From the NCBI RefSeq assembly GCF_964059055.1, contig NZ_OZ060386.1, positions 330,001-362,000 of the forward strand: a stretch of 32,000 bases of DNA, in the 5' to 3' direction. How positions within the stretch are numbered: position 1 is the stretch's first letter; every line of letters starts with the position of its first letter. The DNA comes from Buchnera aphidicola (Neophyllaphis podocarpi). Lineage in GTDB: Bacteria > Pseudomonadota > Gammaproteobacteria > Enterobacterales > Enterobacteriaceae. The notes beneath the pieces were generated by a model. It saw only the letters and a program-made list of their open reading frames with translations, was not told the DNA's origin and ran no database searches. This document shows positions 4,703 to 17,148 of the stretch, in pieces. Both the position numbers and the translations under genes were made by a program.

Positions 4703-5631
4703 ATGACACACATCATTATAAACATCGATGAAAATAATATAAATCAAAGAATTGACAATTTTTTAAAAAAAAAATAAAAAAAATACACAAAAATACAATT
4801 TATAAAATATTACGTAAAGGAAATATACGTGTAAATAAAAAGAGAGTTAAACCAAAATATAAATTAAAAAATAAAGACATAGTAAAAATAACTAATATAA
4901 AATTTCAAAATAAGACTAATAAATATATCGATAAAAATATTATTAAACTAGAAAAAAGTATATTATATGAAGATAATTATTTAATAATAATAAATAAACC
5001 AGTTGGAATATCTGTACATGGAGGAAGTGGTATAAATTATGGTATTATAGAAAGAATAAGATTGCTTAGATCTAAAGTTAAATATTTAGAACTTGTACAT
5101 CGTCTTGATAAAGATACATCTGGAATTTTAATAATAGCAAAAAAAAGATCTACATTAGTATCCTTGCATAAACAAATTAGAGAACTGAAAGTTAAAAAAA
5201 AATATTTAACTTTAGTACATGGATTATGGTCTAAAAAAATTAAAAAAGTTGATTTACCTATATTAAAAAATAAAAAAAATAAAGGAATAAACTTAGTCAA
5301 AATTAGTTCATTAGGTAAAAAATCTCAGACTATTTTTGAAATCAAAAAAAAATATTTTAATATGACATTATTATATGCAATACCTGTTACAGGCAGAACT
5401 CATCAAATAAGAATTCATACATCTCATATAGGAAATCCTATAATTTTTGATAATAAATATGGTAATAAAATATTAGATAATAAAATTAATATTCAAAATT
5501 TAAGAAAAAAAATAATATTACATGCATATTCTATGAAATTCATACACCCTAATACTAAAAGTGAATTTTATATACAAGCACCTTTAAGTATAGAATTGAA
5601 AAAATACCTAAAAAGTCTAAACAACAATTAA
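4703..5631 (+). CDS. rluC: 23S rRNA pseudouridine synthase RluC, reading frame interrupted by a frameshift in an A10 tract (strictly a frameshifted gene; possibly rescued by slippage)
   Basis: ATG 4703 encodes [24 protein letters not shown], then TAA at 4775-4777. The -1 frame from 4774 continues [31 protein letters not shown]...[20 protein letters not shown]...GRTHQIRIH to the stop at 5631. Both halves align to E. coli RluC (..[60 protein letters not shown]). The ORF-track start at 5062 (TTG) would remove the S4 domain. Confidence 0.88.
4765..4774 (+). repeat. A10 homopolymer at the rluC frameshift site (followed by T then A8, 4776-4783)
   Basis: Counted directly: positions 4765-4774 are all A. 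The upstream frame is 4703 mod 3 and the downstream frame is 4774 mod 3, which differ by -1. Confidence 0.95.
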
Positions 5632-5666
5632 AATATAAAATATTTAAATTAATAAAAGGATATAAC

Positions 5667-5834
5667 ATGGCTGTACAAAAAAGCAAACCTACAAGATCGA
5701 AAAGAGGAAAAAGAAGATCTCACAGTGCATTAAAAATACCTGCTATTTCTAATGATAGAATTACAGGAGAAAAACATCTATTTCATCACATAACTACAAA
5801 TAAAAATTACAAAGGAAAAAAATTTTTTAAATAA
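5667..5834 (+). CDS. rpmF: 50S ribosomal protein L32
   Basis: Not in the ORF track (55 aa). Translation is [55 protein letters not shown], versus E. coli L32 [22 protein letters not shown]...SGEKHLRHHIT. SD AAGGA lies at 5656-5660. Confidence 0.95.
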
Positions 5835-5857
5835 AAAATTTTTAAATAAAAAATAGT

Positions 5858-5886
5858 ACTGTCAATTAAAAAAATAAATTGACAGT
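5858..5886 (+). terminator. Perfect 10-bp hairpin downstream of rpmF (possible terminator or attenuator before fabD)
   Basis: actgtcaatt (5858-5867) and aattgacagt (5877-5886) are exact reverse complements with a 9-nt A-rich loop. There is no strong U tract afterwards. Confidence 0.4.
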
Positions 5887-5927
5887 TAAATATAAAAATA
5901 ATTTAAAAAAATTAAAAGGATTTTCTT

Positions 5928-6881
5928 ATGAAATATGCAGTAATATTTCCAGGACAAAATTTTCAATCTATTAAAAATCTAAATAATCTTGCAAAAAAAT
6001 ATTCTTCGATTAAAAAAAAATTTTATGAAGCATCTGATTATTTAAATTGTAATTTATGGAATATAATACAAAATTTAGATGAAAAAAAAATTAATCTTAA
6101 TAATTATATACAACCTATTATACTAACAATATCTGTATCTATATATAATATATGGAAACAAAAAAAACAAAAAAAACCTACTATTATGGTTGGGCACAGT
6201 TTAGGAGAATATTCTGCTTTAGTATGCTCAAACAGTATAAATTTTGGTGATGCTTTAAAATTAATTATGATTAGAAGTAAATTAATGCAAGAAGTTTCAA
6301 TAAAAAATGAAGGATTAATGTATGCTATTGTGGGTATAGATAAAAATATTATAAATAACATATGTAATTTAGTTTCAAATAAAGAAATAGTTTCTATTGC
6401 AGCAATAAATTCTCCTGATCAAGTAATAATTTCCGGAAACAAAAATTCTATAATTAAAACTATTAAAATATGTAAAAATATTGGAGCAAAATATGTAATT
6501 AAATTACCAACAAAAATTCCTTCTCATTGTATATTAATGAAAGATATATCAATTATTTTTAAAAAAAAATTAAAAAAAATAAAATTTAAAAATCCTAAAT
6601 ATTTATTTATAGATAATGCAAATGCAAAATTTATTAATTCTGAATCTGATATTAAAAATTCTCTAGTAAAACAATTATATTGTCCAATATTATGGACAGA
6701 AGTTATGAAACTTATAGAAAAAAAAATTTTTTTATCAATTGAAATAGGGACTAAAAATATATTAAGTAATATTAATAAATATTTAACTAAAATCAACTCA
6801 TTAACAATTAACAATGAAAAAAACTTATATACTGCATTAAAATATATATTAAATAAAAAGGAAAATAATAAAAATGTCTAA
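5928..6881 (+). CDS. fabD: Malonyl-CoA:ACP transacylase
   Basis: 317-aa ORF with SD AAGGA upstream. It carries the active-site GHSLGEYSALV, IRSKLMQE (Arg) and PSHCILM (His), colinear with E. coli FabD. The N-terminal FPGQGSQ motif reads FPGQNFQ here. Confidence 0.9.
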   Translation: MKYAVIFPGQNFQSIKNLNNLAKKYSSIKKKFYEASDYLNCNLWNIIQNLDEKKINLNNYIQPIILTISVSIYNIWKQKKQKKPTIMVGHSLGEYSALVCSNSINFGDALKLIMIRSKLMQEVSIKNEGLMYAIVGIDKNIINNICNLVSNKEIVSIAAINSPDQVIISGNKNSIIKTIKICKNIGAKYVIKLPTKIPSHCILMKDISIIFKKKLKKIKFKNPKYLFIDNANAKFINSESDIKNSLVKQLYCPILWTEVMKLIEKKIFLSIEIGTKNILSNINKYLTKINSLTINNEKNLYTALKYILNKKENNKNV

Positions 6882-7592
6882 AAAAAAATAGCTTTAGTTA
6901 CAGGAGCTACAAGAGGTATAGGAAAATCTATAGCTCAAAATTTAACAAAAAGTAATTTTTTCGTGATTGGTACATCAACAAATAAGGAAGGAGTTAAACA
7001 AATTAGTAATTATTTACAAAATAATGGTTGTGGTTTAATATTACAGTTAGAAAAAATACAATCTATTGATAATATATTTAAAAAATTTAAAAACATAGAT
7101 GTATTAATAAATAATGCAGGTATTATATGTGATAAATTAATTACAAATATGAATATTGAAGATTGGAATAAAGTAATAGACATAAATTTAAAATCAGTTT
7201 TTTATTTATCTAAAAATGTTATAAAACATATGTCAAAAAATAATTATGGGAGAATTATTAATATAAGCTCTATATCTGGATTTACAGGCAATGTTGGACA
7301 ATCTAACTATTCAGCTTCAAAAGCAGGAATTGTAGGATTTACAAAATCTATTGCATTAGAAGTTGCTTTAAAAGGAATTACTGTAAATAATATATCTCCT
7401 GGGTTAATTAATACTAATTTGACTAAAAAATTAACAAATAAACAAAAAATAAAATTTATATCAAAAATACCAATGAAAAGATTTGGTAATGTACAAGAAG
7501 TAGCTGATTTAATATTATTTTTAGTCTCAAAAAAATCTTCATATATTACGGGGCAAACTATACATATAAATGGTGGAATGTATATGACTTAA
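6874..7592 (+). CDS. fabG: 3-oxoacyl-ACP reductase FabG, start codon out of frame with the body across an A9 tract (frameshifted; possibly rescued by slippage)
   Basis: SD AAGGAAA (6858-6864) precedes ATG 6874, which reads ATG TCT AAA AAA AAA TAG. The conserved body starts in the -1 frame at 6888: IALVTGATRGIGKSIAQNL...NNAGI...YSASKAG...GGMYMT, versus E. coli FabG MNFEGKIALVTGASRGIGRAIAETL. That frame has no ATG/GTG/TTG before GTG 6963, which lies after the TGxxxGIG cofactor motif. Confidence 0.85.
6880..6888 (+). repeat. A9 homopolymer at the fabD stop / fabG frameshift site
   Basis: Counted directly: 6880-6888 are all A. The fabD stop TAA occupies 6879-6881. The fabG body is in the same frame as fabD. 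Confidence 0.95.
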
Positions 7593-7658
7593 TTTTTGTA
7601 TTTAAAATAGTTTTAAAATTAAATTAGTTTTTAATAAAATTATAAGAGAAAATAAAAC

Positions 7659-7898
7659 ATGAGCAATATAAAATCTAGAATAAAAAAAATTATATGTGAA
7701 CAATTAGATTTAGAAGAAAATAAAATTAAGAATGATTCTTCTTTTGTAGATGATCTAGGAGCAGATTCATTAGATACAGTAGAACTTATTATGGCATTTG
7801 AAGAAGAATTTAATATAGAAATAAAAGATGAAGATGCAGAAAATATAACAACAGTTCAAGAAGCAGAATTTTATATTACACAACATATTAATAAATAA
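7659..7898 (+). CDS. acpP: Acyl carrier protein
   Basis: 79-aa ORF containing [21 protein letters not shown] (phosphopantetheine Ser in DSLD), colinear with E. coli AcpP. Confidence 0.96.
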
Positions 7899-7904
7899 AT
7901 AATT

Positions 7905-7942
7905 AGAATTTAGTGATGTGATCGCTAAATTCTTTATTTTTC
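7905..7942 (+). terminator. Rho-independent terminator after acpP
   Basis: agaatttagtga (7905-7916) pairs with tcgctaaattct (7922-7933): 12 bp including one U.G wobble in the plus-strand RNA, with a 5-nt loop. It is followed by ttatttttc. Confidence 0.65.
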
Positions 7943-7990
7943 ATATAATTAAAATAACATTAAATTATATAAAATATTTTAGTGAAAAAA

Positions 7991-8632
7991 ATGAAAGGCA
8001 AATTTATTGTAATAGAAGGAATAGAAGGTGCAGGTAAAACTAGCGCTATTAATTATATAGCTCACATTTTACGGAAAGAACATAAAATAAAAAAAATTAA
8101 AATAGTACGTGAACCTGGAAATACACCTATTGCAGAAAAATTAAGAAAGTTAATAAAAAAAGGAAACAAAAATGAAGAACTAACAGACATATCCATGTTA
8201 TTATTGATCTATGCCGCTAGAATACAATTAATCAAAAAAATCATAAAACCTTCTATAAAAAAAGGTTCCTGGGTAATTGGAGATCGTCATACTTTATCTT
8301 CTTTTGCATATCAAGGAGGAGGTTTTAAGATAGAAGATAAAATAATTAACAAAATTCATAAAATATCTATGGATAATTTTAAACCAAATTTGACGTTATT
8401 TTTAGATGTTTTACCTTCTATTGGATTAAAACGTATTCTTTCAAGAAAAAATAGAGATATCATAGAAAATAAATCAATTAATTTTTTTAAAAATACTAGA
8501 AAAAAGTATATTAAATTAATTAAACATGATAAAAAAATTATAAAAATTAATGCAAATCTAAAAATTAATCAAGTTTATAGATTAATTAAAAATAAATTAA
8601 ATAGTTGGATAAAAATAGAAAAGTGTTTATAA
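7991..8632 (+). CDS. tmk: Thymidylate kinase
   Basis: MKGKFIVIEGIEGAGKT (P-loop), REPGNTPIAEKLR, GDRHTLSSFAYQGGG, colinear with E. coli Tmk (MRSKYIVIEGLEGAGKTT). The ORF track starts at in-frame GTG 7982. ATG 7991 matches the E. coli N-terminus better, so the start is uncertain by 9 nt. Confidence 0.9.
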   Translation: MKGKFIVIEGIEGAGKTSAINYIAHILRKEHKIKKIKIVREPGNTPIAEKLRKLIKKGNKNEELTDISMLLLIYAARIQLIKKIIKPSIKKGSWVIGDRHTLSSFAYQGGGFKIEDKIINKIHKISMDNFKPNLTLFLDVLPSIGLKRILSRKNRDIIENKSINFFKNTRKKYIKLIKHDKKIIKINANLKINQVYRLIKNKLNSWIKIEKCL

Positions 8633-9603
8633 GTTTACTGCCATGGTTAATTTCTCCTTATGAAAAATTTATTCTAAAACGTAAAAAAAAATTAGCAAAT
8701 AAAAATATTTTAATAAAATCAGAAGTAGAATTAGGAGCTAAATTTTTATTGTGGCAAATAAGTCGTTTAATATTATGCAAAAATAATAAACATAACAATA
8801 TTTGTGATAAATGTTATGAATGCAATTTAATGAAATTAAAAAACCATCCAGATTTTTATTATATAAATAGTAAAAAAATAGGAATAGAAGAAATAAAAGA
8901 ATTAAAATTGAAAATATTTATAAAACCTCAAATAAACCAAAATAAAATAATCTGGTTGTCTAATATAGAAAATATATCAGAATACGGAATAAATTCTTTA
9001 TTAAAAATATTAGAAGAACCACCTACAAATGTATGGTTTTTAATGTATCATGAAGGATCTACAGAAATCACAAAAACATTAAATAGTAGATGTATTAAAT
9101 ACCTATTAAAAACCCCTGCAGAAAAAACAAGTTTAATGTGGTTAAAAACTAAAAATAATTATACAAAATATACGAATTTAACTGCTTTAAGATTAAATAA
9201 TAATTCACCTATATTAGCCAAAAAATTCTTAGATAGTTTTTTTATGAAAGAAAAAAATAATTTGTTTAAAATTTTAAATTATTCTATCAATGAATTAAAT
9301 CTAATGAACTTATTACCTTTAATGCAAAAAAATAACACAATAATTAAAATTAATTGGATATACATTCTATTATTAGATGCTATTAAATTAAAAAATCAAA
9401 TAAATGAGTATTTAATAAATTTGGATAATCTAAATTTAATTAAAAAACTATCTATGAAATATTCGTATGAAAAATTATTTTTTAGTATAAAATTTTGGAT
9501 TAAATGTAAAAAAAGAATAATTAAAATAAAAGGTATTAATTATCAATTAATATTGACAGAACAATTATTAAAATGGGAAGAAATTTTAGATTTTAAACAA
9601 TAA
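8605..9603 (+). CDS. holB: DNA polymerase III delta-prime subunit
   Basis: LPWLISPYEKF aligns with E. coli YPWLRPDFEKL, and LLKILEEPPTNVWFLM...LNSRCIKY with LLKTLEEPPAETWFFL...LRSRCRLH. The gene overlaps the tmk 3' end. The start is either TTG 8605 or GTG 8623. Confidence 0.82.
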   Translation: MDKNRKVFISLLPWLISPYEKFILKRKKKLANKNILIKSEVELGAKFLLWQISRLILCKNNKHNNICDKCYECNLMKLKNHPDFYYINSKKIGIEEIKELKLKIFIKPQINQNKIIWLSNIENISEYGINSLLKILEEPPTNVWFLMYHEGSTEITKTLNSRCIKYLLKTPAEKTSLMWLKTKNNYTKYTNLTALRLNNNSPILAKKFLDSFFMKEKNNLFKILNYSINELNLMNLLPLMQKNNTIIKINWIYILLLDAIKLKNQINEYLINLDNLNLIKKLSMKYSYEKLFFSIKFWIKCKKRIIKIKGINYQLILTEQLLKWEEILDFKQ

Positions 9604-9622
9604 ATTAAAAGAGATATATCTT

Positions 9623-10417
9623 ATGTTTTTAGTAGATTCTCACTGTCATATTAGTAATTTAAATTCAATTAATGATAATATTTTAATAAATAATATAATA
9701 AATAGAGCTTTTAAAAAAAATATTAAATTTATTTTAGCTGTATCTACATCGATTAAAGATTTTTATAAAATAAAAAAAATAATAAAAAACAAAAAAAATA
9801 TAAAATGTTCTTGTGGAATTCATCCTTCATATATAAATAATAAAGAAGATTTTACAGAGTTAAAAAAAATATCTAAATATAATTTAGTTATAGCAATAGG
9901 TGAAACAGGATTAGATTATTATAAATGTTATACTCCCAAAACAAAACAACAAAATATTTTTCGTAAACATATAAATATTGCGTGCTCAGAAAAAAAACCA
10001 CTAATAGTACATACAAGAAATGCTATTCAAGATACCTTATCAATATTAAAAGAAGAAAAAGCAGAAAAATGTAGTGGAGTAATTCATTGTTTTAATGAAG
10101 ATATAATAGCAGCTAAAAAAATACTAGATATAAATTTTTATATTTCTTTTTCTGGAATTATAACTTTTAAAAATACAAATAAATTCATAGATATCATTAA
10201 ATTTGTTCCTATAAGTAAAATTCTTATAGAAACTGATTCTCCATACTTATCACCTGAACCATATAGAGGTATAAAAAATGAGCCATCTTTTTTAATAGAA
10301 ATTGCTAAAAAAATAGCTATTATTAAAAATAAAAGTGTTAATGAAATAGCAAAACAAACAACAAAAAATTTTTTTAAATTATTTAATAAAGTTACAAACT
10401 TTAACATGAAACATTAA
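9623..10417 (+). CDS. ycfH: TatD-family metal-dependent deoxyribonuclease/hydrolase YcfH
   Basis: 264-aa ORF with TatD motifs: N-terminal VDSHCHI, GETGLDYY, IHCF and ETDSPYL. Its position after holB matches E. coli. Confidence 0.85.
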   Translation: MFLVDSHCHISNLNSINDNILINNIINRAFKKNIKFILAVSTSIKDFYKIKKIIKNKKNIKCSCGIHPSYINNKEDFTELKKISKYNLVIAIGETGLDYYKCYTPKTKQQNIFRKHINIACSEKKPLIVHTRNAIQDTLSILKEEKAEKCSGVIHCFNEDIIAAKKILDINFYISFSGIITFKNTNKFIDIIKFVPISKILIETDSPYLSPEPYRGIKNEPSFLIEIAKKIAIIKNKSVNEIAKQTTKNFFKLFNKVTNFNMKH

Positions 10418-10492
10418 CAATTTTTATTTAAATATTTTACTATTGTATTAATTATTATAAAAAAAAATATTTATTATTTAGGATTTTATAAA

Positions 10493-11938
10493 ATGTTCAA
10501 AAATTCATTTGCAAACTTGCAAAAAGTAGGTAAATCACTAATGTTACCTGTATCAGTATTACCTATAGCAGGTATTTTATTAGGACTAGGATCTGCCAAT
10601 TTTGTATTTATTCCTAATATCATGTCACACATTATGGCTGAAGCAGGAAGCTCTGTATTTAATAACATGCCATTAATATTTGCTATAGGTGTAGCATTAG
10701 GATTTACAAATAACGATGGAGTTGCTGCTTTAGCTGCCGTGATTGCATATGGCATAATGATAAAGACTTTAAATGTTGTAACATCTTTTAATGTAGTAAA
10801 TAAAATTTTACTACATAATAGCATTATACCAATTAAACAATTAAATGATACTGGAATATTAGGAGGTATAATAGCAGGAGCAGTAGCTGCATTCATGTTT
10901 AATAAATTTTATCGTATTAAATTACCAGAGTATCTAGGATTTTTTGCAGGTAAAAGATTTGTTCCTATTATTTCTGGTTTAGCATCTATTATATTAGGAA
11001 TAATACTATCATTTATATGGCCTCACATAGGATTTTTAATTAAAAAATTTTCTGAATGGGCTGCTTACCAAAATCCTATTTTAGCCTTTGGAATATATGG
11101 AATTGTTGAAAGAACACTAGTACCATTTGGCTTACATCACATATGGAATGTTCCATTTCAAATGCAGATAGGTGAATATATTAACTCTTCAGGCCAAATA
11201 TTTCATGGAGATATTTCAAGATATATGGCTGGAGATATGACAGCAGGAAAATTATCCGGAGGTTTTTTATTCAAAATGTATGGTTTACCAGCTGCTGCTA
11301 TAGCAATATGGCATAGTTCTAAAAAAGAAAATAAAGCTAAGATAGGAGGAATAATGCTATCAGCAGCATTAACGGCTTTTCTTACAGGAATAACAGAACC
11401 TATAGAATTTTCTTTTATTTTGGTAGCTCCAATTTTATATGTCATTCACGCAATATTAGCAGGTTTAGCTTTTCCTTTATGCATAGCATTAGATATGAAA
11501 TCTGGAACTAGTTTTTCTCACGGTTTAATTGATTTTTTAGTTTTAAGCGGTCATAGTAATAATATACTATTATTTCCTATAGTAGGAGTGATTTATGGAT
11601 TAATTTACTATCTTATATTTTATTTTGTAATAATTAAATTTAATTTAAAAACTCCTGGAAGAGAAGAATATTCAAAATATATTTTAACAAAAAAAGATGA
11701 TTCTGAAATAGCAAAACTTATAGTAGATGCCTTAGGAGGCAAAAAAAATATAAAAAACCTAGATGCTTGTATTACAAGATTAAGAGTAAGTGTTTTAGAA
11801 ATACAAAAGGTAAATAAAAATAAACTAAATAAATTAGGTGCAGCAGGAGTAATAATTTCAGGATTAGGAGTACAAGCAATTTTTGGTACAAAATCAGACA
11901 ACTTAAAAACAAAAATAGACGAATATTTAAATAAATAA
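10493..11938 (+). CDS. ptsG: PTS glucose-specific EIICB component
   Basis: 481-aa ORF. The N-terminus [33 protein letters not shown] is typical of the EIIC(Glc) family. The C-terminal EIIB domain carries the phospho-cysteine motif [10 protein letters not shown]. Confidence 0.95.
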
Positions 11939-11983
11939 TTCTTATCACAAAATAAATAAAAATTACAAAAAAGAGAATAAATT

Positions 11984-12330
11984 ATGAAAAAAAAAATATT
12001 TTTGAAAAAATTATAAAAAAAGAAATAAAATCAGAAATAGTTTACCAAGATGAAAAAATTACAGCCTTTAAAGATATTAATCCTAAAGCTCCTATACATA
12101 TAATTATTGTACCAAATAAATTTATAAAAAATATGAATGAAATTACTATAAAACATAGCAAAATAATTTTTCATATGTTTTATACAGCAGTTAAAATAGC
12201 AAAAATGAAAAATATAGATTTTAGTGGATATAAATTAATTATAAATTGCAATAAAGATGGAGGACAAATAATTCCTTATTTACATATGCATTTAATAGGA
12301 GGTATAAAATTAAGTAATTTTATAGTTTAA
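11984..12330 (+). CDS. hinT: HIT-family purine nucleoside phosphoramidase HinT (YcfF), start codon out of frame with the body across an A10 tract (frameshifted; possibly rescued by slippage)
   Basis: SD AAGAGA (11971-11976) precedes ATG 11984, which reads ATG AAA AAA AAA ATA TTT TTG AAA AAA TTA TAA. The -1 frame from 11995 reads [42 protein letters not shown]...HMHLIGG. E. coli HinT is [45 protein letters not shown]...HMHLLGG. The first canonical start in the body frame is ATG 12133, which would lose the nucleotide-binding N-terminal half. Confidence 0.85.
11987..11996 (+). repeat. A10 homopolymer at the hinT frameshift site
   Basis: Counted directly: 11987-11996 are all A, immediately after ATG 11984-11986. 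Confidence 0.95.
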
Positions 12331-12509: not shown

Positions 12510-12662
12510 CTAATTATTAATTTTTAATAAATTAGGAATTTTATTATCAATAGGCCATATAATTTTATCATTATTACATATTAACTCATTTTTTGTACTA
12601 TTAAAAATTAATTTATTAAAACATATTGGACAAGCTAAAATATTTAATAAATTATTATCCAT
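12510..12662 (-). CDS. ycaR: Small Trm112-like/UPF0434 zinc-ribbon-type protein YcaR (50 aa)
   Basis: Not in the ORF track. Minus-strand translation from ATG (complement of 12660-12662) to TAG (12510-12512) gives MDNNLLNILACPICFNKLIFNSTKNELICNNDKIIWPIDNKIPNLLKINN. E. coli YcaR, recalled from memory, is [50 protein letters not shown]. Confidence 0.75.
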   Translation of the reverse strand: MDNNLLNILACPICFNKLIFNSTKNELICNNDKIIWPIDNKIPNLLKINN

Positions 12663-13366
12663 ATAAACTCAAAATAAAATGATAATATCATAAAATTATA
12701 ATATCATAAACTTATATTAAATTTTTATTAAAAAAGCTATAAAATACATTTTTATTCGAAATTATAATATAAATTTTTAAATAGAAATATTTAATTTATA
12801 ATTAAATAAAAATAAAACAATTTATGATTAACATTTTATTAAAATTAATAGTTAAATTTGATTTTTTGTATTATAAATTTCTATATTCAAAATAAATAAA
12901 TATAAAATATATTATTTGTAAAATTACATAATAAAAAAACTAAATTTTATTTATATAAAAATATTTATTATTAAAAAATATTAAAATATAAATTAGTATA
13001 GTTAATATAAAAAGTATAAATTCGATAAAATTTTTAATTTTTTAAAAAACTGAATTAAATATAAAAATCATAAAAATAAATTTAGTAATCAAAAAATTTA
13101 ATTTATATATATATATTAAAAAAATTTTAGTTATATAAAAATATAATAATTAAATTAAATTTTATTTTATTAAATTAAATTAGATTTAACTTAAAAAGTA
13201 AATTAATATTATTTTTAAAATTTAATTATATTAATTTTTAAAATTAAATATCTTTATAAAAACAAAATTAAAATATTATATTTAATATATAGATTTAAGA
13301 AAATAAAATTAAAATAAAAATATTTTTTACATAATTGTGACTTTAAAAATAAATATAAATAAAATT
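12663..13366. other. 704-bp gene-free hyper-AT spacer (about 5% G+C by line counts); no ORF and no structured-RNA-like G+C island
   Basis: The track shows no ORF on either strand. Individual 60-nt lines contain only 2-4 G/C. The spacer contains a short (TA)6 run at 13104-13116. Confidence 0.6.
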
Positions 13367-14770
13367 TTAAAAATTAGCATTATGTATTGTTCTTGGAAAA
13401 GGAGCTATATCTTTAATATTTTTAATACCTGTAACATAAGATAAAAGTCTTTCAAATCCTAAACCAAAACCAGAATGAGGAACTGTACCATAAACACGGA
13501 GATCACGATACCACCAATAATCTTCTTTTTTTAGTCCTAACTCTTTAATTCTATCATCTAACTCTGTTAATCTCTCTTCTCTTTGAGATCCTCCAATTAG
13601 TTCACCTACTCTAGGTACTAATAAATCCATAGAAGCTACGGTTTTATTGTCATCGTTTAGTCTCATATAAAAAGCTTTCATACTTTTAGGAAAATTTTTA
13701 ATAAAAACAATTTTTTTAAAATGTTGTTCACAAATATATTTTTCTTGTTCTGATGATAAATCATCTCCAAACAATATTTTTTTATTATTAAAGTTTACAT
13801 TAGCATTATTTAATATTTCAATTACTTCACAATAATCAATTTGTATAAAATTATATTCTAAACTTTGTTCTAATTTATCTAATAAATTTATATTCGTATA
13901 TTCTGAAAAAAAAATAAGTTCATCTTTACATTTTTTTAATAAAATATTAAATAAATATTTTAAAAATAACTCAACAAAAATTATTATATGATTTAAATCA
14001 CTAAATGCTATCTCTAATTCTAACATCCAAAATTCTGATAAATGTCTACTTGTATTTGAGTTTTCAGCTCTGAAAGTAGGACCAAAAGAATAAACGTTAG
14101 ATAAAGCACAAGCATATGCTTCTAAATTTAATTGACCAGAAACAGTTAAAAATGTTTTTTTACCAAAAAAATTATCTTTATAAATACCATGATTAAAATT
14201 ATAATCATTTTTTGTTTTTTGAGAAGACGATGAAACAGAAAAAGTATCTCCAGCGCCTTCAGTATTAATACTTGTAATTATAGGAGTAGGAACCCAAAAA
14301 AAACCTTTACGATGCAAAAATTTATGCAAATAATAGTTTAGAGTATTTCTTACTCTGGATATTGATCCTATGATATTAGTTCTAGGCCTTAAATGAGCTA
14401 CTTCTCTTAAATATTCTAAGGTATGTTTTTTAGAAGAAATAGGATATGTATTTGGATTAAATACTGATCCAGCAATTTTTATTTCTTTAGATAAAATTTC
14501 ATATTTTTGTAAATTACCTAAAGAATTTATTATTTTTCCTTTAACAGTTAATGAACATCCTGTTGTTATATTTATAATTTCACTATAATAATTATTTAAA
14601 GTATTTTTAGATATTATTTGTATAGTATTTAAACAAGAACCATCATATAAATTAATAAAAGAAATACCTATTTTAGAATCTCTTTTTGTACGAACCCAGC
14701 CATTAATAATAATATCAGAGTTTAGATTAAAATTACCTTGATATATATCTTTGATAGTAATAACTTTCAT
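13367..14770 (-). CDS. asnS: Asparaginyl-tRNA synthetase
   Basis: 467-aa ORF colinear with E. coli AsnS throughout (GWVRTKRDSKIGISF, REVAHLRPRTN, FGPTFRAENSNTSRHLSEFWMLE, GGSQREER, GTVPHSGFGLGFERL, PFPRT). Confidence 0.97.
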   Translation of the reverse strand: MKVITIKDIYQGNFNLNSDIIINGWVRTKRDSKIGISFINLYDGSCLNTIQIISKNTLNNYYSEIINITTGCSLTVKGKIINSLGNLQKYEILSKEIKIAGSVFNPNTYPISSKKHTLEYLREVAHLRPRTNIIGSISRVRNTLNYYLHKFLHRKGFFWVPTPIITSINTEGAGDTFSVSSSSQKTKNDYNFNHGIYKDNFFGKKTFLTVSGQLNLEAYACALSNVYSFGPTFRAENSNTSRHLSEFWMLELEIAFSDLNHIIIFVELFLKYLFNILLKKCKDELIFFSEYTNINLLDKLEQSLEYNFIQIDYCEVIEILNNANVNFNNKKILFGDDLSSEQEKYICEQHFKKIVFIKNFPKSMKAFYMRLNDDNKTVASMDLLVPRVGELIGGSQREERLTELDDRIKELGLKKEDYWWYRDLRVYGTVPHSGFGLGFERLLSYVTGIKNIKDIAPFPRTIHNANF

Positions 14771-16191: not shown

Positions 16192-17148
16192 TTATAGAAG
16201 ATTATAAGTCTTATTAAAAAAATTATATTTACAAGCCAAAGAGCAATATTTATCTAAACTATTCCTGCAATATTTACATTGTATAAAAAGCAAATGACAA
16301 GAACTATTTTTACAATTTATATAAGTATCACAAAGATTATTACATTGATGACAAGAAGATATTATGTTATTTGAATAATCTTCAATCATACGCGCATCAA
16401 AAACAAAGAGTTTTCCTTGAAAGTAATTAGGTAAATTAAACTTATGTACATCACGTAAATATTTTAAGATACCACCTTTTATATGATATACATTTTTAAA
16501 ATTATTATTAAGTAACAAAGAGGTAGATTTTTCGCATCTAATACCACCAGTACAATACATTAATATCTTTTTATTTTTAAATTTTATTAATAAACTTAAT
16601 ATATCTTGCATTTGTTGTTTAAAAGTTTTAGCTCTAACATTTATAGAATTTACAAAATGTCCTATTTCATACTCATAATAATTACGCATATCTACTAATA
16701 CGGCAGAAGAATCTTCAATCATATTATTAACTTCTATAGCATTTAAATATATTCCATTATTTTTATTATTAAATTTATTACAAATAATACCATCAGAAAC
16801 AATTTGTTTTTTAATTCTGACATACAATTTATTAAATGGTATTTTACTATAACTTAGGGCTAAATTCATATACAAATTATTTAATTCAGATTTTAAAAGA
16901 TATATGAATAATTTCATTTTATGATAAAAAACCAAAGGTACACTAATTTGAGCATTAATACCTTCAAAAGATATATAAACTCTACCTAAAATATTCATTT
17001 TATTAAAATTTATATGAATAAAATCACGAAATAATTCCGGTTTACTAATATAAAAATATTTATAAAAAGAAACTATCTTAATTTTATGTATTTTATTTTT
17101 TTTTTTGTTCAACAAACTTTTTTTATCTTTACTCAACAAAAATGACAT
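16192..17148 (-). CDS. trhO: Rhodanese-domain protein YceA (tRNA U34 hydroxylase TrhO family)
   Basis: Colinear with E. coli YceA (SFYKYF.I, GRVY...EGINAQISVP, DMRN.YEYE.GHF, MYCTGGIRCEK, C-terminal HCHQC...CKN..CHLLFIQC). The ORF track starts at TTG 17160. ATG at the complement of 17146-17148 (MSFLLSK...) is preferred. Confidence 0.87.
   Translation of the reverse strand: MSFLLSKDKKSLLNKKKNKIHKIKIVSFYKYFYISKPELFRDFIHINFNKMNILGRVYISFEGINAQISVPLVFYHKMKLFIYLLKSELNNLYMNLALSYSKIPFNKLYVRIKKQIVSDGIICNKFNNKNNGIYLNAIEVNNMIEDSSAVLVDMRNYYEYEIGHFVNSINVRAKTFKQQMQDILSLLIKFKNKKILMYCTGGIRCEKSTSLLLNNNFKNVYHIKGGILKYLRDVHKFNLPNYFQGKLFVFDARMIEDYSNNIISSCHQCNNLCDTYINCKNSSCHLLFIQCKYCRNSLDKYCSLACKYNFFNKTYNLL

What the first reader, a model, noticed from the sequence alone, without database searches (positions are those of the whole stretch)
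4703..12330. Pattern: three 5'-proximal poly(A) frameshifts within 7.6 kb, all requiring +1 A, among many in-frame A9-A11 tracts
rluC (A10), fabG (A9) and hinT (A10) are each broken in the first 2-24 codons. Each is restored by the same change, one additional A. Each retains a fully open, conserved downstream frame.

At least six other coding-strand A9-A11 runs in this window are in frame as KKK:
- 5194-5202
- 5344-5352
- 6012-6020
- 6082-6090
- 8683-8691
- T11 at 17096-17106, which is A11 in yceA

A uniform homopolymer under-call is therefore not an obvious explanation.

Rescue of frameshifted genes by polymerase infidelity (transcriptional slippage) at long poly(A) tracts has been described for Buchnera and Blochmannia. 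The consistent direction and 5' location here would fit slippage-dependent, possibly dosage-limiting expression. They would equally fit early pseudogenisation of three dispensable genes.
Basis: partly seen in the sequence, partly recalled or inferred. Interest (0 to 1): 0.8.

Follow-up and report, generated by a model that had tools for sequence, protein, structure and literature searches.

The report
Conserved poly(A) frameshifts in Buchnera genes
Three genes of an aphid's bacterial symbiont (Buchnera) are each one A short in a long run of A's near their start. The defect is real, old and still under selection, so the cell must correct the frame at the run. This trick is already known from such symbionts, so it is a new example and not a new kind of thing.

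Summary
The window is Buchnera aphidicola from the aphid Neophyllaphis (21% GC). Three genes are out of frame:

- **rluC:** ATG at 4703, A10 tract at 4765-4774.
- **fabG:** ATG at 6874, A9 tract at 6880-6888.
- **hinT:** ATG at 11984, A10 tract at 11987-11996.

One extra A restores full-length RluC, FabG and HinT. Fourteen other sense poly(A) tracts of 9 or more bases in coding sequence are in frame.

The frameshifts are not sequencing errors. Two other Illumina genomes (99.3% and 95.4% identical), plus assemblies made separately from two public read sets, carry identical tract lengths.

They are not decaying pseudogenes. Window versus the 95% relative gives dN/dS of 0.12, 0.26 and 0.04 (pooled 0.15, against 0.18 for 13 intact neighbours). 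None of the 28 A/T tracts of 6 or more bases in these genes has an indel, whereas 16 of 27 intergenic tracts changed length.

Other Buchnera have in-frame A8-A10 tracts, or none, at the same places. Each lesion is therefore a 1-nt contraction.

The most likely rescue is RNA-polymerase slippage adding one A. This is documented in Buchnera and Blochmannia and is biased towards insertions. A -1 ribosomal slip on A AAA AAA may contribute. No transcript or protein was examined here. Verdict: a new member of a known kind, of modest interest.

The parts
4703..4774 (+). rluC 5' segment in the frame of the ATG (24 codons, [24 protein letters not shown]), ending in the A10 tract. It encodes the first part of the S4 domain.
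   Evidence: the S4 domain covers residues 15-61 of the restored protein and so spans the tract; both substitutions against L083 in this segment are synonymous in the ATG frame.
4765..4774 (+). rluC A10 tract, the frameshift site (one A short). A zero-frame TAA follows at 4775-4777.
   Evidence: The length is identical in L081, L082, L083 and L084. In the other Buchnera examined the same spot carries an in-frame A9 (L085) or an interrupted, shorter run (L086, L087).
4774..5631 (+). rluC downstream frame (285 codons): the rest of S4 plus the pseudouridine synthase domain.
   Evidence: dN/dS is 0.116 against L083, with no indel or stop.
6874..6888 (+). fabG ATG, TCT and the A9 tract (6880-6888), the frameshift site. 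A zero-frame TAG follows at 6889-6891. The fabD stop (6879-6881) overlaps this segment.
   Evidence: Identical in all relatives. Other Buchnera have an in-frame A10 or A7 here (MKNKKKTALITG in L085, with A10).
6888..7592 (+). fabG downstream frame (234 codons), the complete short-chain dehydrogenase (SDR) domain starting at IALVTGATRGIG.
   Evidence: the adh_short profile starts at residue 5. dN/dS is 0.247.
11984..11996 (+). hinT ATG followed at once by the A10 tract (11987-11996), the frameshift site. The zero-frame stop is TAA at 12014-12016.
   Evidence: Identical in all relatives. L086 has TTG AAT AAA AAA AAT ATT TTT GAA in frame.
11995..12330 (+). hinT downstream frame (111 codons), the complete HIT domain.
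   Evidence: dN/dS is 0.041.
17096..17106 (-). In-frame A11 (T11 on the + strand) at codon 19 of yceA/trhO. It serves as a control tract, the longest in the window.
   Evidence: in frame behind a conserved ATG, with invariant length in the three lineages.
8683..8691 (+). In-frame A9 at codon 21 of holB. It is a control tract near a 5' end.
   Evidence: in L083 it is interrupted by a substitution (AAAAAAGAA) and its length is unchanged.

Best explanation
The window comes from Buchnera aphidicola of the aphid genus Neophyllaphis.

In the common ancestor of the three sampled lineages, three lysine-coding poly(A) tracts each lost one A. The tracts sit at the 5' ends of rluC, fabG and hinT and were originally A11, A10 and A11, all in frame. 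The loss put the conserved ATG out of frame with the rest of the gene.

The genes are still needed and still make protein. This is inferred from selection, not measured.

The frame is corrected at the tract itself. The most likely mechanism is backward slippage of RNA polymerase on the 9-10 nt A:T hybrid. That would add one A to a fraction of transcripts, which ordinary translation from the ATG then reads into full-length RluC, FabG and HinT. A -1 slip of the ribosome on A AAA AAA would give exactly the same proteins and may contribute.

Transcripts that are not corrected yield only 5-, 10- or 24-residue peptides. That would make frameshifts this close to the start cheap to carry.

What is shown: the lesions are real, they are shared across lineages, the genes are under purifying selection, and there is no further decay. 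What is inferred: the correcting mechanism and the level of expression.
For: **Real lesions, not errors.** Tract lengths are A10/A9/A10 in the window, in CP135042 (L081, 99.3% identical) and in CP135039 (L083, 95.4% identical). They are the same in the Logan assemblies of SRR29340286 and SRR29340287. The two GenBank genomes are Illumina NovaSeq data from a different laboratory (PMC11193766).

**Purifying selection.** Window versus L083 gives dN/dS of 0.12 (rluC), 0.26 (fabG) and 0.04 (hinT). Pooled this is 0.15, against 0.18 for 13 intact neighbours. P(neutral) is 6e-17, and the Fisher test of frameshifted versus intact genes gives p = 0.35.

**No secondary lesions.** There are no indels in the 28 A/T tracts of 6 or more bases in the three genes. 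In contrast, 16 of 27 intergenic tracts of that length changed length, giving P about 1e-11. All of the roughly 46 indel events in the alignment are intergenic or at the extreme 3' ends of coding sequences.

**Correction must happen at the tract.** The rluC S4 domain (residues 15-61) spans the tract, and the two substitutions upstream of it are synonymous in the ATG frame. The ATGs and the register from ATG to tract are invariant, although indels occur 5-20 nt upstream of each ATG. The first canonical in-frame start codons downstream would delete the FabG Rossmann motif or 50 residues of HinT.

**Ancestral state one A longer.** Adding one A makes each protein's region next to the tract align without gaps with intact Buchnera orthologues. 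For RluC and HinT the Lys run then has the same length as in the outgroup, whereas removing two A's leaves it one residue short.

**Precedent.** Slippage at such tracts yields mixed transcript pools and full-length protein in Buchnera and Blochmannia. Such frameshifts are conserved between species (Tamas 2008 and Wernegreen 2010, as summarised in PMC3017870). Transcription errors in A/T runs of Buchnera are single-base insertions whose rate rises exponentially with run length up to 11 nt. Deletions are rarely in runs (PMC5574713).
Against: No transcript or protein data exist for this organism, so the correcting step is unobserved.

Sequence alone cannot separate RNA-polymerase slippage from -1 ribosomal slippage, because the products are identical.

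For fabG and hinT, the protein domain starts after the tract. A non-canonical start codon, as used in the public annotation, is therefore not formally excluded.

Only three lineages and one 20-kb alignment were available. The tests of whether the tracts are kept pure, or kept at the frameshifted length, are not significant (P about 0.3 each).
Confidence: 0.65

Rival explanations
1. The ribosome, not RNA polymerase, corrects the frame. After initiating at the ATG, Lys-tRNA slips back one base on A AAA AAA. At rluC and fabG this would be helped by the zero-frame stop codon directly after the tract.
For: The shift needed is -1 at the ribosome. All three tracts contain the classic slippery heptamer A AAA AAA. 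In rluC and fabG a stop codon follows the tract at once. Ribosomal frameshifting on runs of A is long known (PMC5009743). The product is identical to that of +1 A transcription slippage.
Against: There is no downstream stimulatory structure: the z-scores of the 100 nt after each tract are -0.5, -1.6 and -0.3, no different from those after in-frame tracts. No dedicated upstream Shine-Dalgarno-like stimulator is evident. Unstimulated -1 shifting is usually only a few percent (my own knowledge). Transcription slippage has direct experimental precedent in this genus.
Confidence: 0.15
2. The genes are simply translated from non-canonical start codons (ATA or ATT) in the downstream frame, as the public annotation of the relatives has it. 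No frame correction would then be needed.
For: The annotations of CP135042 and CP135039 call fabG from ATA at the last A of the tract (234 aa), hinT from an ATA 7 nt upstream of the ATG (117 aa) and rluC from an internal ATA (274 aa). The FabG and HinT domains begin after the tract.
Against: For rluC this removes half of the S4 domain. The annotated 274-aa product has no S4 hit, whereas other Buchnera RluC proteins and the restored protein do. The rluC codons upstream of the tract also change only synonymously.

The Shine-Dalgarno-like purine runs are spaced for the ATGs: AAGAGA lies 7 nt before the hinT ATG but abuts the ATA, and AAGGA lies 11 nt before the fabG ATG but 25 nt before the ATA.

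The out-of-frame ATGs are conserved in all lineages, while the DNA just upstream takes indels. ATA is a very poor initiator in enterobacteria (my own knowledge).
Confidence: 0.08
3. Tract length varies at the DNA level among the many genome copies of each polyploid Buchnera cell. A minority of copies with A11/A10/A11 would supply in-frame genes, while the assembly consensus shows the majority length.
For: Intergenic homopolymers change length very readily in this lineage: 16 of 27 tracts of 6 or more bases differ between window and L083. Buchnera is highly polyploid (my own knowledge).
Against: The consensus length is identical in five assemblies from three lineages. The 14 in-frame tracts of 9-11 A in coding sequence also show no length change. 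No read-level data were available to test for minority alleles.
Confidence: 0.06
4. The three genes are recently inactivated pseudogenes in the first stage of decay.
For: Indels in homopolymers are the usual first step of gene loss in endosymbionts (PMC3017870 and PMC3622351). RluC and HinT are dispensable in E. coli (my own knowledge).
Against: The same lesions are shared by lineages with dS of 0.09-0.23. dN/dS is 0.04-0.26, the same as in intact neighbours. No second lesion occurs in 28 mutable tracts (P about 1e-11). fabG is the only 3-oxoacyl-ACP reductase gene seen in this locus and sits in a retained fab cluster.
Confidence: 0.03
5. It is a sequencing or assembly artefact, with these three homopolymers systematically under-called.
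For: Long homopolymers are error-prone on some platforms.
Against: Three genomes from two laboratories, plus two assemblies made independently from reads, agree. The two GenBank genomes are Illumina data. Fourteen other A9-A11 tracts, including an A11, are in frame in the same assemblies.
Confidence: 0.02

Closest known systems
Poly(A)-tract frameshifts rescued by polymerase infidelity in Buchnera and Blochmannia (Tamas et al. 2008 PNAS; Wernegreen, Kauppinen & Degnan 2010 MBE; Williams & Wernegreen 2010, PMC3017870)
   Same: In both, a single 1-nt indel sits inside a pure A tract of 9 or more bases in an otherwise intact gene of an AT-rich insect endosymbiont. The frameshift is conserved between diverged lineages, and evolutionary rate does not accelerate. 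In the published cases, rescue is by transcriptional slippage that gives a mixed mRNA pool.
   Different: The genes (rluC, fabG, hinT) and the host lineage (Neophyllaphis) are different. I found no paper describing these cases. All three sit within the first 24 codons, two of them directly after the start codon. No transcript or protein evidence exists here. The density (3 of 25 genes in the window) is higher than the 4-8 per genome reported for Blochmannia, but one window cannot show whether this holds across the genome.
Genome-wide transcription indel spectrum of Buchnera (Traverse & Ochman 2017, PMC5574713)
   Same: It supplies the mechanism and the direction. Single-A insertions occur in A/T runs and rise exponentially with run length up to 11 nt. 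This matches the need for +1 A at A9-A10 tracts.
   Different: That study saw no reading frame restored in Buchnera APS. The tracts here are frameshifted in the DNA, and that study did not examine this lineage.
dnaX-type programmed -1 ribosomal frameshifting on A AAA AAG
   Same: Both involve a slippery run of A decoded by tRNA-Lys, and both need a shift of -1.
   Different: No downstream hairpin stimulator was found. The purpose here is repair of a lesion, not production of a second protein. The site lies at codons 2-24 rather than inside the gene.
Phase-variable contingency loci with homopolymer tracts (for example Haemophilus and Neisseria)
   Same: A 5'-proximal homopolymer tract determines whether the gene is in frame.
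   Different: Those loci switch through DNA length changes between cells and strains. Here the tract length is invariant across three lineages.

Membership tests
Endosymbiont poly(A) frameshift rescued by transcriptional slippage (Tamas 2008 class) | The frameshift lies inside an uninterrupted A/T homopolymer about as long as the RNA:DNA hybrid (9 nt or more) | tested here: met
   The tracts are A10, A9 and A10, all pure and all on the sense strand.
Endosymbiont poly(A) frameshift rescued by transcriptional slippage (Tamas 2008 class) | A single 1-nt indel is the only lesion, and the gene is otherwise full length and recognisable | tested here: met
   Adding one A gives 309-, 239- and 115-aa proteins with end-to-end family matches. 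They are collinear with intact Buchnera orthologues.
Endosymbiont poly(A) frameshift rescued by transcriptional slippage (Tamas 2008 class) | The frameshift is conserved between diverged lineages | tested here: met
   It is identical in the window, L081 (99.3%) and L083 (95.4%; gene dS 0.09-0.23).
Endosymbiont poly(A) frameshift rescued by transcriptional slippage (Tamas 2008 class) | Purifying selection acts on the frameshifted gene | tested here: met
   dN/dS is 0.12, 0.26 and 0.04. P(neutral) is 1e-12, 1e-4 and 9e-4. The genes do not differ from their neighbours.
Endosymbiont poly(A) frameshift rescued by transcriptional slippage (Tamas 2008 class) | The transcript pool is heterogeneous in tract length and includes in-frame mRNAs | not testable with these tools
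   No RNA data were available. This needs error-corrected RNA-seq or amplicon sequencing.
Endosymbiont poly(A) frameshift rescued by transcriptional slippage (Tamas 2008 class) | Full-length protein is produced | not testable with these tools
   This needs proteomics or reporter fusions.
Programmed -1 ribosomal frameshift site (dnaX type) | A slippery heptamer X XXY YYZ lies at the shift site | tested here: met
   A AAA AAA is present in all three tracts, and the required shift is -1.
Programmed -1 ribosomal frameshift site (dnaX type) | A stable stem-loop or pseudoknot lies 5-9 nt downstream | tested here: not met
   Folding 100 nt downstream of each tract gives z-scores of -0.47, -1.60 and -0.29, similar to the controls. 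The only hairpin (fabG) starts at spacer 0.
Programmed -1 ribosomal frameshift site (dnaX type) | A Shine-Dalgarno-like stimulator lies about 10 nt upstream | tested here: inconclusive
   The only purine-rich elements are the initiation Shine-Dalgarno-like sequences, about 13 nt (hinT) and about 19 nt (fabG) before the last heptamer. None is evident for rluC.
Pseudogene in early decay | Selection is relaxed (dN/dS near 1) and further lesions accumulate in relatives | tested here: not met
   
Phase-variable contingency locus | Tract length is polymorphic among strains | tested here: not met
   Tract lengths are invariant in five assemblies of three lineages.

The most novel reading that the evidence does not exclude
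The frameshifted state is itself favoured, not just tolerated. On this reading, 5'-proximal tracts one A short act as built-in attenuators that set low, slippage-limited doses of RluC, FabG and HinT. Only frameshifts within the first few codons are tolerated, because uncorrected transcripts then cost only a 5-24-residue peptide. Position in the gene and the direction of the indel would then be rules governing which endosymbiont genes can live on polymerase error. In that case Neophyllaphis Buchnera might carry far more such genes than the 4-8 per genome known from Blochmannia.
Probability: 0.12. Interest if true: 0.6.

Novelty: new member of a known kind. Interest (0 to 1): 0.35.

Why it matters
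It adds three well-supported cases to the small set of endosymbiont genes that appear to depend on expression-level frame correction: real in several independent assemblies, conserved across lineages, and under purifying selection.

One of them, fabG, is the only 3-oxoacyl-ACP reductase gene seen in a retained fatty-acid synthesis cluster.

It gives a simple reason why all three need +1 A. Only contractions can be repaired by insertion-biased polymerase slippage.

It raises a testable question: are such frameshifts tolerated mainly at the extreme 5' end of genes?

It also exposes an annotation problem. In the public records of the sister genomes the lesions are hidden behind ATA start codons. 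The annotated RluC therefore lacks its S4 domain, and gene-content comparisons would miss the phenomenon.

Tried and rejected
**Searches that gave nothing useful**

PtsG is too conserved, and no Buchnera locus came from it.
- Exact look-ups of the window's PtsG, its HolB (P0048) and its RbfA found nothing on record. The window's own genome is therefore not in that index, and the sampled region could not be extended beyond the window.
- A genome-wide census was not possible. Only about 20 kb of each relative could be fetched.
- Tamas 2008 and Wernegreen 2010 are not held in the library. Their results are cited through PMC3017870 and PMC5574713.

**Tests that came out negative or uninformative**

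- There is no downstream RNA structure that could act as a frameshift stimulator.
- I tested whether selection keeps the tracts pure. None of the 3 is interrupted, against 4 of the 12 in-frame A9 tracts in the aligned region; P is about 0.3.
- I tested whether selection keeps the tracts at the frameshifted length. The absence of reversion gives P of roughly 0.3 under the intergenic indel rate. Both tests are too weak to support a claim.
- The clustering of the three genes within 7.6 kb is not significant.
- A search for a decayed porin gene in the 12663-13366 spacer found no remnant.

Full report
**What the window is.** The window has 21% G+C and the enterobacterial gene order rne / rluC-rpmF-fabD-fabG-acpP-tmk-holB-ycfH-ptsG-hinT / asnS-pncB-yceA-valS.... 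Its HolB is residue-for-residue identical, after the start codon, to P0048 and to CAL4323101.1, which is labelled 'Buchnera aphidicola (Neophyllaphis podocarpi)' and comes from a 559,180-bp genome. Two sister genomes were reachable:

- CP135042, labelled N. varicolor (locus L081), 99.3% identical over 19.6 kb.
- CP135039, labelled N. podocarpi (locus L083), 95.4% identical.

Independent Logan assemblies of read sets SRR29340286 (L082) and SRR29340287 (L084) were also reachable. The two GenBank genomes are Illumina NovaSeq data (PMC11193766).

| Gene | ATG | Tract | Zero-frame stop | Restored length |
|---|---|---|---|---|
| rluC | 4703 | A10, 4765-4774 | TAA directly after the tract | 309 aa |
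| fabG | 6874 (then TCT) | A9, 6880-6888 | TAG directly after the tract | 239 aa |
| hinT | 11984 | A10, 11987-11996 | TAA at 12014 | 115 aa |

One added A gives the open frames listed. These match the NCBIfam models for RluC, FabG and HinT end to end, and Pfam S4 plus PseudoU_synth_2, adh_short and HIT.

A census of the window finds 17 sense-strand poly(A) tracts of 9 or more bases inside genes. Three are the frameshifts, including both A10s. Fourteen are in frame, including the A11 of yceA. The frameshifts lie at 1-7% of gene length. Only 3 of the 14 in-frame tracts lie in the first tenth of a gene, so the 5' bias is unlikely to be chance (about 0.01). The shared direction (P = 0.25) and the clustering within 7.6 kb are not significant on their own.

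**Not an artefact.** All five sequences from three lineages and two laboratories carry exactly A10/A9/A10, with the same out-of-frame ATGs. The same assemblies have A9-A11 tracts in frame elsewhere.

**Not pseudogenes.** Because the lesions are shared, the divergence between the window and L083 measures evolution that took place with the frameshift present.

- Nei-Gojobori dN/dS is 0.12 for rluC, 0.26 for fabG and 0.04 for hinT. Pooled it is 0.15, against 0.18 for 13 intact neighbours (range 0-0.68).
- Neutrality is rejected at 1e-12, 1e-4 and 9e-4. The frameshifted genes do not differ from intact ones (Fisher p = 0.35).
- The three-way alignment has about 46 indel events. All are intergenic or at the last few codons of rpmF, fabD, ycfH and yceA.
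- In intergenic DNA, 16 of 27 A/T tracts of 6 or more bases changed length. None of the 28 such tracts inside the three genes did (P about 1e-11).

Independent recent origin in each lineage would need at least six parallel contractions. Over the same period none of the 14 in-frame long tracts changed length.

**How the lesions arose.** Three other Buchnera genomes (OZ060405, OZ060372, CP187398) have intact rluC (314-320 aa, with S4), fabG (244-250 aa) and hinT (114-115 aa). Most carry in-frame A runs at the homologous spots:

- rluC: ...DNFL KKK F..., written TTG AAA AAA AAA TTT (L085).
- fabG: MKNKKKTALITG, with an A10 (L085).
- hinT: TTG AAT AAA AAA AAT ATT TTT GAA (L086).

With one A added, the Neophyllaphis proteins are collinear with these around the tract. 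For RluC and HinT, removing two A's instead would leave them one residue short. Each lesion is therefore a 1-nt contraction of an ancestral A11, A10 or A11.

**Where the frame must be corrected.** For rluC, the S4 domain (residues 15-61) straddles the tract. The two substitutions in the 21 codons upstream of it are both synonymous in the ATG frame. The product annotated publicly from an internal ATA (274 aa) has lost S4. Both frames are therefore translated and joined at the tract.

For fabG and hinT, the domains begin right after the tract. The public annotation escapes through ATA starts. Three things point instead to initiation at the ATG:

- The purine-rich Shine-Dalgarno-like elements are spaced for the ATGs, not for the ATAs.
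- The out-of-frame ATGs and their register with the tract are invariant, while indels strike 5-20 nt upstream.
- The next canonical in-frame starts would delete the Rossmann motif or 50 residues.

**Mechanism.** The step needed is +1 nucleotide in the mRNA, which is equivalent to a -1 shift at the ribosome.

Transcriptional slippage is documented for frameshifted poly(A) genes of Buchnera and Blochmannia. It yields mixed transcript pools and full-length protein, and such frameshifts are conserved between species (Tamas 2008 and Wernegreen 2010, as summarised in PMC3017870; also PMC5009743).

Genome-wide error spectra show that in Buchnera the errors in A/T runs are single-base insertions. Their rate rises exponentially with run length up to 11 nt, whereas deletions rarely fall in runs (PMC5574713). 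This explains the uniform direction without special pleading. Contractions can be repaired by the polymerase's dominant error. Expansions cannot, and would decay out of sight.

Ribosomal -1 slippage on A AAA AAA would give identical proteins. In rluC and fabG a stop codon sits directly behind the tract. I found no downstream stimulatory structure, so I rank ribosomal slippage second. Heterogeneity among the many genome copies in each cell is a further untested contributor.

Caveat: Traverse and Ochman saw no frame restored in Buchnera APS, and nothing here measures RNA or protein.

**Why the 5' end (inference).** Lysine runs pile up after start codons in this genome. Examples are MKKK in hinT, MSKKK in fabG and MIKKK in ridA. 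N-terminal tails are also loosely constrained, so long pure tracts persist there. Uncorrected transcripts of a 5' frameshift cost only a 5-, 10- or 24-residue peptide. A selected dosage-limiting role is not supported: given the intergenic indel rate, the lack of reversion to the in-frame length is not significant.

**Verdict.** What is new is the genes, the lineage, the clean comparative evidence and a possible 5'-position rule, which a whole-genome census could test. I rate it a new member of a known kind, with interest 0.35.

Noticed in passing
whole window versus L081 and L083: The host labels do not match the sequence similarity. The window's genome is labelled N. podocarpi (CAL4323101.1). 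It is 99.3% identical to CP135042, labelled N. varicolor, but only 95.4% identical to CP135039, labelled N. podocarpi. This suggests a misidentified host or cryptic aphid species.
   Followed up: partly
window 6870 (fabD 3' end); L083:8230-8252: In L083 a 1-nt deletion just upstream of the fabG ATG puts fabD in the frame of that ATG. fabD then reads through ATG TCT A9 and ends ...ENNKMSKKK*. One extra A in the tract would create a 554-aa FabD-FabG fusion ORF.
   Followed up: partly
L081:6184-7008, 8265-8969, 13353-13706; L083 equivalents: The public annotation of the sister genomes hides all three frameshifts behind ATA start codons. rluC is called as 274 aa without its S4 domain, fabG as 234 aa and hinT as 117 aa. 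The Logan gene calls give still shorter fragments: 189-205 aa, 172-209 aa and 65 aa.
   Followed up: yes
window 12663-13366: This 704-bp spacer is very AT-rich and full of indels between strains, including a 26-bp duplication in L081 at 12792. Other Buchnera carry an OmpF-type porin gene between hinT and asnS. No remnant of it is detectable here by tblastn.
   Followed up: partly
window 12510-12662 (-): A 50-aa YcaR/Trm112p-like ORF (MDNNLLNILACPICFNKL...) has dN/dS of 0.68 (2 synonymous and 7 non-synonymous changes against L083). Constraint on it may be weak.
   Followed up: no
window 5833, 6870, 10415, 16215: The only indels inside coding sequences between the three lineages sit in the last few codons of rpmF (16 bp), fabD, ycfH and yceA. 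They alter C-terminal tails. The same 3'-end pattern is described for Blochmannia (PMC3622351).
   Followed up: partly
window 6889-6909: A 7-bp hairpin (UAGCUUU...AGGAGCUA) starts at the first base after the fabG tract. It is not significant against shuffles (z = -1.6), and with no spacer it is too close to act as a classical frameshift stimulator.
   Followed up: yes
window 10459-10467: This intergenic A9 upstream of ptsG is the only long tract whose length varies between strains: A9 in the window, A7 in L081, and interrupted in L083. It shows how mutable unconstrained tracts are.
   Followed up: yes
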